DNA from: Mizuhopecten yessoensis
Lineage: Eukaryota
DNA: 57,458 nucleotides
Direction of reading: 5' to 3'
Assembly: GCF_002113885.1 (NCBI RefSeq)
Contig: NW_018407733.1
Coordinates: forward strand, 1,552,834 to 1,610,291
Numbering within the stretch: position 1 is the stretch's first letter; each line of letters opens with the position of its first letter. Positions 9,001 through 51,000 of the stretch are shown one piece after another. A program made the position numbers.

Positions 9001-12000
9001 TCCGGACTAGGGCTTCAAGCAGCTGTTGAAAACAATGTATTTCCTTTCAAGGATTGTATTTTGTCCACTCAGTCTGGCCAGTAGAAATACACAGGAGTAT
9101 TTGTTTAAGCTAAAAGTTCAATATTTACCTTCCTTAATCAGTATAGCCTATATATAATTTGTTAAGCCGATATGAATTATATGTTTATTTTTCAACAAGA
9201 AAAGATTTAAACAAAAGACTGGCGTTCGTTTGATTCATCTGCTTTTTTAATACTTCGTTATGTTTCCGACTTACCGACATTTCGATGTGCGTGCCACGTT
9301 ACGACGGAAGGTAGTATAGCTTATTGCATTTTCCTTCATTGCACGTTTTTCAGGTGGGAACTTTGCATATGTATATATACATAGCCCCCAGGGTTAGCCG
9401 GGTATACACTTCGTATATACCGTCCTCAGAGGTCCTACCGCGTGTAAACAGACATTAGTTTCCAGTCTTATTAAGCGAGGCGTAACGTATAGCAAGTACT
9501 GTATACATGTAGGGCGTCGGGTGTCGTGTAACAGTCATTCTATGTTGGCTGTGCAGAACAGGTGTACTTTCTATCAAACTATGGGACTACTGAGAAGAGT
9601 GTTCTGGACACGAAACACAAAATGGCAGGAAAAGGTATTTATTCTCACTGTCGTTATGGTAGTCTGTGTAACAGGAATGATCAATCTGAGACCGCATTAC
9701 TTTGTGAGGCAGATGGAACACAAACACAACTCTCGCAATGTCATTATAACGAAGAAAATAATGTCAGATTATAATTATGTATCGGAGGATTTTCATTCAA
9801 AAATATTTAATTCAAGTTATTGTTTAGACATCTCGAAATCGCCGACAAGGACAAACTTAAATGTTGGTTTTGATAGAACCAAAAACCGGCTACATCCCAT
9901 CAGATACTTTCCGCCGGAAGTTAACATTAGCGAATCGGAGAAACAACGTATTTCGCGCCTACTTCCGGACGATTTCCTCCATACGAATGCTTCGTCAGAT
10001 CGAGTTTACGAACAATTAGAATATGTGCCGAGAACTTACTCCAGTAAATCGGATATCAAAGTTGTGTATATTTGGCACATGGAAAAATGGACAAACGTTC
10101 CCACGGGATTAGAATTCTTCAAGCACTGCAAGGTGAACCGCTGTAGTTTAACCCACGAGAGAAGTGCGGAGGCCACGGCTGATGCTGTTGTGTTTGCTAA
10201 TTCTGGATATCTACCGTTATCACCACCTTTTCAAAAATCATCTTCTAAACAAATTGCCATTTTAAACATCAATGAGAGTCCAGATAGATCGTGGCCAATG
10301 AATAACTATAAAAACTTTTTCAATTGGACAAACACGTATCGAGTAGACTCGACAATTTATGATCCCTATTTCAAAATTGGACGGAATTGTTGGACGCCTC
10401 CTGATATCCCGACCCCAGGTCGCAATTTCGCCGAGGGCCGGACCAAAAAGGTCGCTTGGATGGTTTCTAACTGCAATATTGTAAAGAGTGGACGTATGGA
10501 GTATGCAAGGGAACTGGGTAAACACGTGCAAGTGGACATTTACGGGCACTGTGGTCCACTGTCTTGTCCAGCGTCCAAACACAGAGAATGCGTCGAAATG
10601 ACCAGGAGGGACTACAAGTTCTACCTGTCGTTTGAGAACCACAAATGCCACGACTATTTGACGGAGAAAGTGATGAACGCTTACGAGTAAGTTTTTATAA
10701 AGCAATCATTCCTCTCCTGTTCACTTTCTGTCATAAGAAAGAGGCATTTTATCGAAAATTATGCTTTTCATATGCTTAAGAATTGTCTTCCTAGTGTTTA
10801 AACGTTTGATATTCAAAGTTCATACATGTACTTTATACACATGAATACAGACAGACAGCATACACACAAACACACATCATTCATTTTATGTCGAAATCCC
10901 GACTTGAACCCTTACTTAGTTCATATATTTTACATACAAAGAAATAACAGAAAAATAATAATGGTGACAACCGATACTATCATAAAGGACTGCCCAGAAA
11001 TGAGTTATATCTATGTCAATATTTTAAAGCTCACCGACAATGATACAGCTGTTCATTTAAGACCTCTATTTTTGGCAAAATTGTCACCAGAAAGGTATCA
11101 TGAATCGATGTTCGTTTCAGGACGCGGTTGTTGCCACGTGTGTTCGTGAACATGTGATTTTGTTTACAAAGGGACCAGTTTGTTTATGTGGAACACCCGG
11201 TTGTCTGTTTTTAAATCTAATATTCCCTGGGCAAGGCTCGCATGTAAGCAGCATCCGGATGTTGTTACAGTTTCATGATGTTCATGGATGTTACAACATC
11301 AAGGAGAACTAAACTATAAAACCATCTTGTGAATATTTTCATGTTTAAACAAACTCTTTGGCTAAACCATCACCAAAGTCGTATCCGTATTATCTAAATA
11401 ACAATAATACATATATACATGTGGCGACGTGAAAAACAACATCCACAGCTGTCTGTATATGGTGACATTTAGTCGTTAATGTTAATATTAATGCGAACAC
11501 TACGTCAGTTGCTATCTCATAGTTCACTCTGTCTCATTGTTCACACTGTCTCATTGTTCACCCTGTCTCATTGTTCACTCTGTCACATTGTTTACTCTGT
11601 CTCTTTGTTCTCTCTGTCTCATTGTTCACCCTGTCTCATTGTTCACTCTGTCTCATTGTTCACTCTGTCTCTTTGTTCACTCTGTCTCATTGTTCACTCT
11701 GTCACTTTGTTCACTCTGTCTCATTGTTCACTCTGTCTCTTTGTTCTCTCTGTCTCATTGTTCACCCTGTCTCATTGTTCACTCTGTCTCACTCCATCTC
11801 ATTGTTCACTCTGTCTAAGTCTGTCACATTATTCACTCTGTCTCAGTGTTTACACTGTCTCATTGTTCACTCTGTATCATTGTTCATTCTGTCTCTTTGT
11901 TCACTCTGTCTCATTGTTCACTCTGTCTCATTGTTCACTCTGTTTCATTGTTCACTCTGTCTCTTTGTTAACACTGTCTCATTGTTCACTCTGTCTCATT

Positions 12001-48000: not shown

Positions 48001-51000
48001 TGCATGTAAAATATATGAACTAAGTAAGGGTTCAAGTCGGGATTTCGACATAAAATGAATGATGTGTGTTTGTGTGTATGCTGTCTGTCTGTATTCATGT
48101 GTATAAAGTATATGTATATGTAAGAACTTTAAATATCAAACGTTTAAACACTAGGAAGACTATTCTTAAGCATATGAAAAGCATAATTTTCGATAAAAGG
48201 CCTCTTTCTTATGACAGAAAGTGAACATGAGAGGAATGATTGTTTTATAAAAACTTACTCGTAAGCGTTCATCACTTTCTCCGTCAAATAGTCGTGGCAT
48301 TTGTGGTTCTCAAACGACAGGTAGAACTTGTAGTCCCTCCTGGTCATTTCGACGCATTCTTTGTGTTTGGACGCTGGACAAGACAGTGGACCACAGTGCC
48401 CGTAAATGTCCACTTGCACGTGTTTACCCAGTTCTCTTGCATACTCCATACGTCCACTCTTTACAATATTGCAGTTAGAAACCATCCAAGCGACCTTTTT
48501 GGTCCGGCCCTCGGCGAAATTGCGACCTGGGGTCGGGATATCAGGAGGCGTCCAACAATTCCGTCCAATTTTGAAATAGGGATCATAAATTGTAGAGTCT
48601 ACTCTATACGTGTTTGTCCAGTTGAAAAAGTTTTTATAGTTATTCATTGGCCACGATCTATCTGGACTCTCATTGATGTTTAAAATTGCAATTTGTTTAG
48701 AAGATGATTTTTGAAAAGGTGGTGATAACGGTAGAAATCCAGAATTAGCAAACACAACAGCATCAGCCGTGGCCTCCGCACTTCTCTCGTGGGTTAAACT
48801 ACAGCGGTTCACCTTGCAGTGCTTGAAGAATTCTAATCCCGTGGGAACGTTTGTCCATTTTTCCATGTGCCAAATATACACAACTTTGATATCCGATTTA
48901 CTGGAGTAAGTTCTCGGCACATATTCTAATTGTTCGTAAACTCGATCTGACGGAGCATTCGTATGGAGGAAATCGTCCGGAAGTAGGCGCAAAATACGTT
49001 GTTTCTCCGATTCGCTAATGTTAACTTCCGGCGGAAAGTATCTGATGGGATGTAGCCGGTTTTTGGTTCTATCAAAACCAACATTTAAGTTTGTCCTTGT
49101 CGGCGATTTCGAGATGTCTAAACAATAACTTGAATTAAATATTTTTGAATGAAAATCCTCCGATACATAATTATAATCTGACGTTATTTTCTTCGTTATA
49201 ATGACATTGCGAGAGTTGTGTTTGTGTTCCATCTGCCTCACAAAGTAATGCGGTCTCAGATTGATCATTCCTGTTACACAGACTACCATAACGACAGTGA
49301 GAATAAATACCTTTTCCTGCCATTTTGTGTTTCGTGTCCAGAACACTCTTCTCAGTAGTCCCATAGTTTGATAGAAAGTACACCTGTTCTGCACATTCAC
49401 AAATACAGGGAACTCGTTTAGCCAACATAGAATGACTGTTACACGACTCCCGACGCCCTACATGTATACAGTACTTACTATACGTTACGCCTCGCTTAAT
49501 AAGACAGTGAACTAATGTCTGTTTACACGCGGTAGGACCTCTGAGGACGGTATATACGAAGTGTGTACCCGGCTAACCCTGGGGGGCTATGTATATGTAT
49601 ATATACATATGCAAAGTTCCTGCCTGCAAAACGTGCAATGAAGGAAGTTGCAAATTAGCTACCTTCCGTCGTAACGTGGCACGCACATCGAAACGTCGAT
49701 TAGTCGGAACATAACGAAGAATTAAAAAAGCAGATGAAACAAACGAACGCCAGTATATTATTTAAATCTTTTCTTGTTGAAAAATAAACATATAATTCAT
49801 ATCGGCTTAACAAATTATATTTGAACTCCGGAAATTTGAGCATTATAAATAGGCTATACTGATTAAGGAAGGTAAATCTTGAACTTTTAGCTTAAACAAA
49901 TACTCATGTGTATTTCTACTTGCCAGACTGAGTGGACAAAATACAATCCTTGAAAGGAAATACATTGTTTTCAATAGCTGCTTGAAGCCCCGGTCCGGAC
50001 ATAAGTTGGTAGAGTTATATCTATGGATACTCTCGTTAGCGAGGAAACAATAGGTTGTGTATTCATAGAATCCATCGCTGATGTGAGGTATGAATACGGT
50101 TATTCAAACCCAAGGGATAAAATATTGAGCAGGAGACCCGAGGCTTTGCTTTAAGTTCATCTTTAACTTTAGATGAGTGTTTGATGGAACCTTGTTAGTC
50201 CGGACATTTTATGATGTATGTTTGCTGGAACCTTGTTAGTCCGGACGCTTTATGATGTATGTTTGATGGACCCTTGTTAGTCCTGACACTTTATGATGTA
50301 TGTTTGATGGAACCTTGTTAGTCCGGACATTTTATGATGTATGTTTGATGGAACCTTGTTAGTCCGGACACTTTTACTTATTAAAGTATTAGAACCTCGA
50401 CATTGCGGATATGTTGAATGTCTGTGAGTAGAACCTTGACAGTCAGGACACTGGTCTGCGTTCAGAGCAAAACTTGTATAGTGTGAACACTTTGTGTACA
50501 ACGGGTCTTTGATAGTCCAGACAATCTTTGATGGGTCCCTCGTTAGTCCAGACATTTGAATTTGTGAAGTGAAACTTCGATAATCTGGACACTTTGGTTT
50601 TACATATCGGAAGACTTCTCGCTAGGAGGAGCAAAGCGTATATTGGGGAAAGGGATGAGGGGAGGTAACGTGCGTGTGTGTGTGGGGGGGGGGGGGAAAT
50701 TTTGTTTAACGTCCTTTTAACAGCTAAGGTCATTTAAGGACCTGCCTCCATGTGACTTTATAGTGCTATATCACTGAAATACCATGCCGAAGGAACCCAG
50801 CACAGCATTCCGCCCGGTCACATTATACTGACAACGGGTGAAGCAGTTGTTGTCATTCCCTAAATGCTGAACGTTAAGCAGGAAATAACAACTACCATTT
50901 TTAAGGACTTTGGTATGTCCCGGCCAGGGGACAGAGCCCATTACCTTCCTCACATGGGCGAACGCTCAACATTAAGGCCAAAAGTGAGGTGTTGCCAAGC

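What the first reader, a model, noticed from the sequence alone, without database searches (positions are those of the whole stretch)
9581..49364. Exons nearly identical between arms while non-coding DNA is heavily diverged: gene conversion or strong selection
Seen: A1/A2 differ at 8 of 475 aa and B1/B2 at 7 of 521 aa; in B exon 2 I could see only two synonymous changes. By eye, adjacent non-coding DNA (e.g. 29050-30500 vs 39360-41460) has many more substitutions and indels plus arm-specific TE insertions. If synonymous divergence is well below flank divergence, arm-to-arm gene conversion is implied, as known for sex-chromosome palindromes.
Basis: partly seen in the sequence, partly recalled or inferred. 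Interest (0 to 1): 0.65.

Follow-up and report, generated by a model that had tools for sequence, protein, structure and literature searches.

The report
Inverted duplicate fucosyltransferase gene pairs
Two mirror-image copies of a pair of sugar-transferase genes have kept similar exons mainly because selection removes protein-changing mutations, with only a hint that a short stretch at each gene's start was copied between the copies.

Summary
The window carries an inverted duplication (left arm about 6272-30895, right arm about 53705-38590, 7.7-kb spacer). Each arm holds two two-exon GT10 fucosyltransferase genes. A copies differ at 8 of 475 aa, B copies at 7 of 521 aa.

Arms about 4-9% diverged in non-coding DNA are not homogenised like sex-chromosome palindromes (>99% identical).

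- In the catalytic-domain coding part, synonymous divergence (14.5/379.5 = 3.8%) equals local non-coding divergence (p = 0.5-0.8) and dN/dS is 0.11. Purifying selection explains this part.
- Pooled synonymous divergence (2.6%) is 0.33-0.63 of non-coding. The deficit sits in the N-terminal (tail/membrane/stem) coding part of both genes: 2/248 synonymous and 9/871 non-synonymous differences, dN/dS about 1.3.
- Codon bias is weak (ENC 56), so selection on the protein or on codon usage does not explain that part. Short conversion tracts at the gene 5' ends are a suggestive reading, not shown.

A haplotype mis-assembly is not excluded: gaps lie between the copies. No relatives from other species could be searched. 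This is an ordinary case with low interest.

The parts
6272..30895 (+). Left arm of the inverted duplication. It is inflated by a 3.1-kb 17-bp minisatellite and a 10.1-kb left-only block.
38590..53705 (-). Right arm. It lies on three N-delimited pieces in the correct order and orientation (38590-39120, 39122-51606, 52121-53705).
30896..38589 (.). Unique 7.7-kb spacer with decayed non-LTR retrotransposon remains. RVT_1 scores E = 7e-9 and 36.1 bits, above the cut-off, at 32163-32465.
9581..10686 (+). Gene A1 exon 1 (GT10 fucosyltransferase; tail, membrane span, stem and first half of the catalytic domain).
25368..25689 (+). Gene A1 exon 2 (stop TAA), reached across a 14.7-kb intron.
26143..27377 (+). 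Gene B1 exon 1.
28423..28753 (+). Gene B1 exon 2.
48259..49364 (-). Gene A2 exon 1.
44455..44776 (-). Gene A2 exon 2 (stop TGA); the intron is 3.5 kb.
42777..44011 (-). Gene B2 exon 1.
41764..42094 (-). Gene B2 exon 2.
9550..10257 (+). Low-divergence patch at the 5' end of A (right-arm partner about 49395-48688). It has 4 differences, all non-synonymous, and no synonymous difference. On its left edge is a 25-bp indel at 9549.
26143..27008 (+). 5' part of B exon 1. It has 8 differences (6 non-synonymous, 2 synonymous) in the first 414 nt. These are followed by the longest identical tract of the arms (26557-27008, 452 nt).
29078..30569 (+). Most diverged aligned stretch of the arms (9.4%, many indels). 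Its partner is about 41440-38930.
11515..14663 (+). 17-bp minisatellite in the A1 intron, 186 copies. The partner array at 46762-47649 has 52 copies.
14797..24938 (+). Left-arm-only 10.1 kb inside the A1 intron. It contains a 48-bp array (15549-16221) and decayed LINE-like ORFs on the minus strand, with Pfam matches only below threshold. The right arm has an unrelated 1.46 kb (45179-46637) at this position.

Best explanation
The locus is an inverted segmental duplication of a tandem pair of GT10 (alpha-1,3/4-type) fucosyltransferase genes. On each arm both genes read towards a 7.7-kb spacer.

Since the duplication, the arms have diverged by about 4-5% at unconstrained sites around the genes, and up to 9% in one stretch. 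They have also gained indels, minisatellite length changes and large arm-specific blocks. The arms as wholes are therefore not being homogenised.

All four genes remain intact. The contrast between exons and non-coding DNA is chiefly ordinary purifying selection:
- Amino-acid-changing mutations and all indels are removed from the coding DNA.
- The 50 nt upstream of each exon (acceptor region or 5' leader) are also conserved.
This part is shown.

One feature that selection on the protein does not explain is the tail/membrane/stem-coding 5' part of exon 1 in both genes. It is about 1% diverged at synonymous and non-synonymous sites alike. My inference, not shown, is that one or a few short arm-to-arm gene-conversion tracts (0.7 kb or less) reset these 5' parts some time after the duplication. 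I give that sub-claim roughly even odds. The suggestion that such tracts start at promoter-proximal breaks is speculation.
For: Structure. GT10 identity: both Pfam halves score above their cut-offs in the exon pieces tested (A1 exon 1, B1 exon 1 and B1 exon 2). The pieces align distantly to human FUT9 chain 8d0o.

Purifying selection:
- Pooled: nd 15.5/N 2354.5 against sd 16.5/S 627.5, dN/dS 0.25, Fisher p = 6e-5 to 2e-4.
- Pfam-domain part: dN/dS 0.11, p = 2e-6, and pS 14.5/379.5 = 3.8%. That pS is indistinguishable from local non-coding at 141/3055, 111/2644 and 82/1959 (p = 0.51, 0.78, 0.78).
- Coding DNA has 0 indels, against 36 indel events in non-coding DNA outside the far block.
- The 50 nt upstream of the four exons show 0/200 differences, against 9/188 in the 50 nt downstream.

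No whole-arm homogenisation:
- 356 mismatches in 8611 aligned columns, plus 1486 gap columns.
- Segmentation gives 4.07% for 8851-29077 and 9.4% for 29078-30569.

Local anomaly in the N-terminal coding part:
- sd 2/248, four-fold sites 0/156, nd 9/871, dN/dS 1.28.
- Synonymous sites versus non-coding, p = 0.002-0.005. All sites (11/1119) versus non-coding, p = 1e-7 to 1e-9.
- Synonymous differences are clumped: B exon 1 p = 0.0045, A exon 1 p = 0.04.
- ENC is 56.2-56.4 in all four genes, so codon-usage selection is an unlikely cause.

Against a simple haplotig insertion:
- Right-arm homology runs on into the pieces on both sides of the gap-bounded middle piece.
- Sequence beyond both outer arm ends is unrelated.
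- The five arm-diagnostic sites in the 296-nt stretch repeated on both sides of the single N carry left-arm states in both copies.
Against: - Only 16 purely synonymous codon differences exist, so every sub-division rests on small counts. I chose the N-terminal/domain partition after seeing where the differences lay, although its boundary comes from Pfam.
- A scan of silent-like sites found no sub-segment inside 8851-29077 at any penalty tried.
- The longest identical tract (452 nt) is not unusual once class-specific rates are allowed: P = 0.12, and P = 0.19 for the top three.
- The pooled maximum synonymous-free gap gives p = 0.09.
- The 'cold' tracts still hold 6-9 non-synonymous differences and, next to A, a 25-bp indel. 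Recent conversion would therefore need near-neutral or divergent evolution of the stem afterwards.
- Against the two most conservative non-coding comparators the pooled synonymous deficit is not significant (p = 0.065 and 0.071).
- Non-coding divergence is itself overdispersed (variance/mean 2.4, p = 4e-7), so no single neutral rate exists.
- Read depth, long reads, other species and populations could not be examined.
Confidence: 0.45

Rival explanations
1. Selection only. This is a real inverted duplication with no exchange between arms. Purifying selection on the protein, and on exon-adjacent non-coding DNA, gives the whole contrast. The synonymous deficit in the N-terminal coding parts is chance or local variation in mutation rate.
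For: - In the domain part, pS equals non-coding divergence and dN/dS is 0.11.
- No exon-specific segment appears among silent-like sites.
- The longest identical tract is not significant.
- The pooled maximum-gap test gives p = 0.09.
- The pooled deficit gives p = 0.065-0.071 against the conservative comparators.
- Non-synonymous counts in the N-terminal part (9/871) fit the pooled dN/dS of 0.25 at 4.6% divergence (my arithmetic).
- Non-coding divergence is heterogeneous anyway.
Against: - The synonymous deficit is seen in both genes separately: A 0 and B 2 synonymous differences before the Pfam boundary. Jointly it is 2/248 against 4.2-4.6%, p = 0.002-0.005.
- Four-fold sites are 0/156 there and 7/389 overall, with p = 0.0003-0.028 against five non-coding comparators and 1.7e-6 against the far block.
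- ENC of 56 argues against codon-usage constraint.
- Synonymous differences are clumped.
Confidence: 0.3
2. The arms are two haplotypes of one locus, placed in opposite orientation on one scaffold (a false 'heterotype' duplication in a highly heterozygous animal). The pattern would then be allelic divergence under purifying selection, and the patchiness would reflect recombination history.
For: - N stretches lie between the copies. Both single Ns are flanked by direct repeats (296/296 and 128/129 identical), which look like unmerged contig overlaps.
- The piece carrying A2 and B2 (39122-51606) is bounded by Ns on both sides.
- Gaps between copies are named as a mark of false duplications in PMC9516828 (passages read).
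- Divergence is heterogeneous along the arms.
Against: - Right-arm homology continues, in order and orientation, into the neighbouring pieces: 38590-38995 on one side and 52785-53168 and 53657-53705 on the other.
- One N-free piece (28185-39120) holds the left-arm inner end, the spacer and the right-arm inner end.
- The 6.2 kb and 3.7 kb beyond the outer arm ends share nothing at E < 0.01.
- 4-9% non-coding divergence with kilobase-scale presence/absence would be extreme for alleles (my knowledge, not tested).
- Caveat: the innermost 394 nt contains a self-complementary repeat that also occurs elsewhere in the window. That weakens this support.
Confidence: 0.12
3. One reading: the exons as wholes are kept alike by ongoing arm-to-arm gene conversion, as in sex-chromosome palindromes or the coding-restricted concerted evolution of Drosophila Amy duplicates.
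For: - Pooled pS is 0.33-0.63 of non-coding.
- Non-coding divergence rises with distance from exons: 19/786 within 100 nt, 32/739 at 101-200 nt, 121/1951 at 201-800 nt, 103/1255 beyond.
- Identical runs of 150 nt or more lie almost wholly in exons, so only exons would meet an identity requirement for conversion.
- Weak codon bias.
Against: - In the catalytic-domain coding part, which holds 621 of the 994 codons counted, pS is 3.8%, equal to non-coding.
- Hot parts of exon 1 reach 7 synonymous differences in 369 nt.
- The near-exon dip is one-sided: 0/200 upstream against 9/188 downstream. That fits constraint on acceptor and leader sequences rather than tract spill-over.
- The arms are about 96% identical, not >99%. 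The >99% figure comes from the abstracts of PMC8981503, PMC3723533 and 10.1101/800185 in the listing.
- Tract tests are not significant.
Confidence: 0.08
4. Assembly or polishing artefact. Reads from two near-identical exon copies were cross-assigned, erasing true differences in the most similar stretches and so lowering apparent coding divergence.
For: - One contig end (28183) falls exactly at the last arm-distinguishing site before a 280-nt identical tract. This shows that the assembler was affected by arm identity.
- The deficit lies in stretches that are already highly similar.
Against: - Such an artefact would act at least as strongly on the well-conserved catalytic part, yet that part keeps pS of 3.8%.
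- Non-synonymous differences survive in the 'cold' tracts.
- Nothing in the window can test this rival directly.
Confidence: 0.05

Closest known systems
Inverted segmental duplications of paralogous genes diverging under purifying selection
   Same: Two arms, a unique spacer and intact gene copies. dN/dS is well below 1, and silent divergence in the catalytic part equals non-coding divergence.
   Different: The N-terminal coding parts of both genes are about four-fold less diverged at silent sites than their surroundings.
Large sex-chromosome palindromes kept >99% identical by arm-to-arm gene conversion (abstracts of PMC8981503, PMC3723533 and 10.1101/800185, seen in the listing)
   Same: Inverted arms longer than 10 kb around a spacer, carrying a multi-copy gene family.
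   Different: Aligned arm identity is about 95.9%, with many indels and kilobase-scale arm-specific blocks. There is no sign of arm-wide homogenisation. Sex linkage is unknown.
[quoted passage not shown]
   Same: Exons are more alike than flanks, and a possible exchange is limited to part of the coding DNA.
   Different: Here most of the coding DNA (the catalytic part) has silent divergence equal to the flanks. No between-species or polymorphism evidence is available.
False heterotype duplications in assemblies of heterozygous genomes (PMC9516828, passages read; oyster haplotig preprint 10.1101/2022.08.29.505626, abstract only)
   Same: Gaps lie between the copies, and the copies are a few percent apart.
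   Different: The copy boundaries do not coincide with the gaps. The homology continues into the neighbouring pieces, and the outer flanks are unrelated.
GT10 alpha-1,3/4-fucosyltransferases (closest solved structure: human FUT9, 8d0o)
   Same: Both Pfam halves are present. The FYLxFEN...DY(V/L)TEK and (I/V)P(I/V)VLG stretches align to FUT9.
   Different: The match is distant (E = 1e-13 and 5e-16 for single exons). The coding region is split by a phase-2 intron. Acceptor specificity is unknown.

Membership tests
GT10 fucosyltransferase | Pfam Glyco_tran_10_N and Glyco_transf_10 both above the gathering score | tested here: met
   A exon 1 scores 62.4 and 95.5 bits; B exon 1 scores 72.8 and 91.4 bits; B exon 2 scores 98.1 bits. 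The cut-offs are 28.7 and 23.9 bits. A exon 2 was matched only by tblastn to B exon 2 (53% identity).
GT10 fucosyltransferase | Conserved C-terminal catalytic stretches align to a solved GT10 enzyme | tested here: met
   B exon 1 residues 228-409 and B exon 2 residues 4-60 align to FUT9 chain 8d0o. The exons were searched one at a time.
GT10 fucosyltransferase | Type II membrane topology (short tail, one N-terminal membrane span, stem) | tested here: inconclusive
   Hydrophobic stretches near the N-termini are visible in the translations. No topology predictor was available.
GT10 fucosyltransferase | Fucose transfer from GDP-fucose | not testable with these tools
   This needs an enzyme assay.
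Sex-chromosome-type palindrome maintained by arm-to-arm conversion | Inverted arms >10 kb with a spacer | tested here: met
   Arms are 24.6 kb and 15.1 kb; the spacer is 7.7 kb.
Sex-chromosome-type palindrome maintained by arm-to-arm conversion | Arm-to-arm identity >99% over the arms, non-coding DNA included | tested here: not met
   356 mismatches in 8611 aligned columns, plus 1486 gap columns. Non-coding divergence is 4.6% locally and 8-9% in one stretch.
Sex-chromosome-type palindrome maintained by arm-to-arm conversion | Variants shared between arms, or arms grouping within species | not testable with these tools
   No reads, populations or other species were available.
Coding-restricted concerted evolution (Amy type) | Synonymous divergence between copies far below flank divergence over the coding region | tested here: not met
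   In the domain part pS is 3.8%, against 4.2-4.6% non-coding (p = 0.5-0.8). The feature is met only in the N-terminal part, where pS is 0.8% (p = 0.002-0.005).
False heterotype duplication | Gaps between the copies | tested here: met
   Two single Ns and one 514-N run lie within or between the arms. Direct repeats flank both single Ns.
False heterotype duplication | Copy ends coincide with contig ends | tested here: not met
   Homology runs 406 nt and about 1.6 kb past the Ns into the neighbouring pieces.
False heterotype duplication | Haploid-level read depth and haplotype-specific k-mers | not testable with these tools
   No reads were available.

The most novel reading that the evidence does not exclude
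An autosomal-looking invertebrate palindrome in which the arms drift apart as wholes, while short conversion tracts repeatedly reset only the promoter-proximal, stem-coding 5' ends of both fucosyltransferase genes. The part of the enzyme that sets localisation and spacing would then stay matched between copies, while the catalytic parts evolve independently. If tracts start at promoter breaks, this would be a natural example of hotspot-guided non-allelic conversion inside a palindrome.
Probability: 0.2. Interest if true: 0.45.

Novelty: new member of a known kind. Interest (0 to 1): 0.25.

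Why it matters
The case shows that 'exons alike, introns diverged' between palindrome arms does not by itself imply gene conversion. Here the catalytic coding DNA has silent divergence equal to the surrounding non-coding DNA, with dN/dS of 0.11. That is what plain purifying selection gives.

The pooled synonymous figure alone would have misled. Splitting by protein region located the whole deficit in the N-terminal coding parts. If that local anomaly is real, it gives a small, testable example of patchy exchange between diverging arms.

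For annotation, the locus adds four intact GT10 genes. It also flags two scaffold joins that need read-level checking before the copies are counted as a gene-family expansion.

Tried and rejected
- **GENECONV** is not installed, and with two sequences its fragment test has no informative sites. I used permutation tests instead. The longest identical tract is not significant. The longest run of non-coding plus four-fold sites without a difference gives p = 0.034, but two-fold synonymous differences lie inside that run.
- **Change-point segmentation** of silent-like sites found no exon-centred segment. The first version of the script timed out.
- **Codon-usage selection** as the cause of low dS is rejected as unlikely, since ENC is 56.
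- **CpG decay** as the cause of the high divergence in the far stretch is rejected. Non-CpG sites there still differ at 114/1573. The A/T versus G/C split in the same call is not interpretable without an outgroup, so I dropped it.
- **Alignment artefact:**
  - Dropping columns within 5, 10 or 20 nt of an indel lowers local non-coding divergence only from 4.6% to 4.2%.
  - MAFFT raises it to 5.8%.
- **Biopython YN00/ML** failed with division by zero on the B exons, and YN00 gave an erratic dS of 0.084 for A exon 2. I therefore used Nei-Gojobori counts and four-fold sites.
- **Symmetric tract spill-over** as the cause of the near-exon dip does not fit the 0/200 against 9/188 asymmetry.
- **Pfam on TE-like ORFs** mostly found nothing. 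One call failed on a stop codon and was re-sent with corrected coordinates.
- **Rfam and tRNA scans** found nothing.
- **Spliced proteins:** Exons were handled one at a time, and the split codon, identical in both arms, was left out of the codon counts.
- **Not human:** I do not take the window to be human. Its best match to the human enzyme is distant, and the genes have an intron in the catalytic domain.
- **N stretches** were left as they are.
- **Unchecked:** Structure, complex and atlas tools were not needed.

Full report
**What is there**

The window is eukaryotic DNA of 32-43% G+C, rich in tandem arrays and decayed retroelements. I do not take it to be human. Its fucosyltransferase genes match the human enzyme only distantly and carry an intron in the catalytic domain.

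Self-comparison shows an inverted duplication. The left arm runs from about 6272 to 30895 and the right arm from about 53705 back to 38590. They lie around a unique 7.7-kb spacer. The spacer holds a decayed reverse-transcriptase remnant (RVT_1 E = 7e-9 at 32163-32465).

Each arm carries two genes that read towards the spacer:
- A (475 aa): A1 = 9581-10686 + 25368-25689; A2 = 49364-48259 + 44776-44455.
- B (521 aa): B1 = 26143-27377 + 28423-28753; B2 = 44011-42777 + 42094-41764.

All four have GT/AG splice sites, a phase-2 intron at the same codon, and open frames. The A1, B1 exon 1 and B1 exon 2 pieces tested match both Pfam GT10 halves above their cut-offs. A and B are old paralogues, about 38% identical in exon 1 and 53% in exon 2.

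Exons were searched one at a time.

**Checking the observation**

I aligned six collinear blocks, giving 8611 aligned columns with 356 mismatches.

| Class | Differences | Notes |
|---|---|---|
| Coding | 33/2994 (1.1%) | no indel |
| Introns plus A-B spacer | 82/1959 (4.2%) | 20 indel events |
| All non-coding, 8851-29128 | 141/3055 (4.6%) | 5.8% with MAFFT |
| Outer flank | 83/1510 (5.5%) | |
| Block 29129-30895 | 134/1676 (8.0%) | 1194 gap columns |

Amino-acid differences are 8 (A) and 7 (B). B exon 2 has two synonymous differences.

The claim of arm-specific TE insertions is only partly backed. The 10.1-kb left-only block in the A1 intron has only sub-threshold RT and endonuclease matches. 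The right-only segments have no second copy in the window (7 of 7).

**Selection or conversion**

Summed over exon pieces, Nei-Gojobori counts give the following:
- sd 16.5 over 627.5 synonymous sites (2.6%).
- nd 15.5 over 2354.5 non-synonymous sites (0.66%).
- dN/dS 0.25, p = 6e-5 to 2e-4.
- Four-fold sites 7/389 (1.8%).

Purifying selection is therefore shown. Pooled synonymous divergence is 0.33-0.63 of non-coding divergence, depending on the comparator. It is significant against four of six comparators. It is borderline (p = 0.065 and 0.071) against the two most conservative comparators. Codon bias is weak (ENC 56.2-56.4), so codon-usage selection is an unlikely cause.

Non-coding divergence rises with distance from exons: 19/786 within 100 nt, 121/1951 at 201-800 nt. 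The dip is one-sided, with 0/200 in the 50 nt upstream of the four exons against 9/188 downstream. That fits constraint on acceptor and leader sequences better than symmetric tract spill-over.

**Where the deficit sits**

I split the codons at the first Pfam match (A residue 160, B residue 215).

| Part | Synonymous | Four-fold | Non-synonymous | dN/dS | Synonymous vs local non-coding |
|---|---|---|---|---|---|
| Pfam-domain | 14.5/379.5 (3.8%) | 7/233 | 6.5/1483.5 | 0.11 (p = 2e-6) | p = 0.51-0.78 |
| N-terminal (tail, membrane span, stem) | 2/248 (0.8%) | 0/156 | 9/871 | 1.28 | p = 0.002-0.005 |

In the domain part, silent divergence equals local non-coding divergence.

In the N-terminal part, all sites together differ at 11/1119, which is far below non-coding (p = 1e-7 to 1e-9). 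Both genes show the deficit. Synonymous differences are clumped (B exon 1 p = 0.0045, A exon 1 p = 0.04).

This is the one feature that protein-level selection does not explain. My inference is that short arm-to-arm conversion tracts reset the gene 5' ends some time after the duplication.

Evidence against that reading:
- The partition was chosen after I had seen the data.
- Only 16 purely synonymous codon differences exist.
- Segmentation of silent-like sites finds no sub-segment within 8851-29077.
- The longest identical tract (452 nt, 26557-27008) has P = 0.12 under class-specific rates.
- The pooled maximum-gap test gives p = 0.09.
- The 'cold' tracts keep 6-9 non-synonymous differences and abut a 25-bp indel.
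- Non-coding divergence is overdispersed in any case (variance/mean 2.4, p = 4e-7).

**Paralogues or alleles**

Two single Ns (28184 and 39121) are each flanked by direct repeats, 296/296 and 128/129 identical. These look like unmerged contig overlaps. A 514-N run lies at 51607-52120. I left all Ns as they are. To avoid counting one right-arm stretch twice, I left one of the identical copies out of the counts.

The piece that carries A2 and B2 is bounded by Ns on both sides. Gaps between copies are listed as a mark of false heterotype duplications in PMC9516828 (passages read).

Against an allelic origin:
- Right-arm homology continues in order and orientation into both neighbouring pieces.
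- One N-free piece holds the left-arm inner end, the spacer and the right-arm inner end.
- The sequences beyond the outer arm ends are unrelated.
- The five arm-diagnostic sites within the 296-nt repeat carry left-arm states in both copies.

One weakness is that the innermost 394 nt includes a self-complementary, MITE-like repeat with other partial copies in the window. I give the allelic artefact about 0.12. It cannot be settled without reads.

**Comparison with what is known**

- Sex-chromosome palindromes are described as more than 99% (up to >99.9%) identical between arms through conversion. This comes from the abstracts of PMC8981503, PMC3723533 and 10.1101/800185 in the listing. This locus fails that feature, at about 95.9% in aligned columns with much indel turnover.
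- Coding-restricted concerted evolution is described for Drosophila Amy duplicates (PMC3924832, passages read). It is the nearest model for the possible local exchange, but here most of the coding DNA does not show it.
- The locus is best filed as an ordinary inverted segmental duplication of a GT10 gene pair under purifying selection, with a suggestive local anomaly.

**What stayed unchecked**

- The organism.
- Read depth, long-read support, polymorphism and expression.
- Supplementary files of papers were not needed.

**Verdict**

Selection is the main cause. Whole-exon or whole-arm conversion is contradicted, and short 5' tracts are possible but unproven. Interest is low (0.25), and the locus is a new member of a known kind.

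Noticed in passing
27888-28480 and 38992-39250: Each single N is flanked by a direct repeat of the adjoining sequence (296/296 and 128/129 identical). The first repeat includes the start of B1 exon 2, so a partial extra copy of that exon appears at 28124-28183. These look like unmerged contig overlaps left by scaffolding.
   Followed up: partly
11515-14663 vs 46762-47649; 7919-8616 vs 50178-50376: Arm-homologous tandem arrays differ greatly in copy number. The 17-bp unit has 186 against 52 copies inside the A intron. The 41-bp unit has 17 against 4.8 copies upstream of A.
   Followed up: partly
30570-30809, 38685-38904, 45530-45720, 46219-46328: A roughly 240-nt self-complementary (about 77-79%) MITE-like element sits at the inner end of both arms. 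Partial copies lie in the right-arm A2 intron.
   Followed up: partly
29078-30569 (partner about 41440-38930): This stretch downstream of B is 9.4% diverged, about twice the rest of the arms. The alignment looks orthologous and the excess is not confined to CpG sites. The cause is unexplained.
   Followed up: partly
2339-4615 (+): A run of long ORFs (240, 182 and 296 aa) just outside the left arm looks like a decayed transposase-type gene. There is no Pfam match except a weak DUF6589 hit (E = 0.077).
   Followed up: partly
1196-1657 vs 7796-7332: A 77%-identical inverted repeat of about 460 nt brackets the TE-like ORFs and straddles the outer boundary of the left arm. It may be the termini of a large element.
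   Followed up: no
25687-25689 vs 44457-44455; 9549: The two A copies use different stop codons (TAA and TGA). The right arm also has 25 extra nt 31 nt upstream of the A start codon.
   Followed up: no
15549-16221; 45830-46213; 421-1158; 56620-57458: Further arm-specific or flank tandem arrays are present, with units of 48 bp, 23 bp, 37 bp and 34/57/125 bp. The last array runs off the end of the window.
   Followed up: no
four-fold sites of A vs B genes: G+C at four-fold sites is 0.48-0.49 in the A copies but 0.35-0.37 in the B copies. The surrounding non-coding DNA is 0.29-0.42.
   Followed up: no
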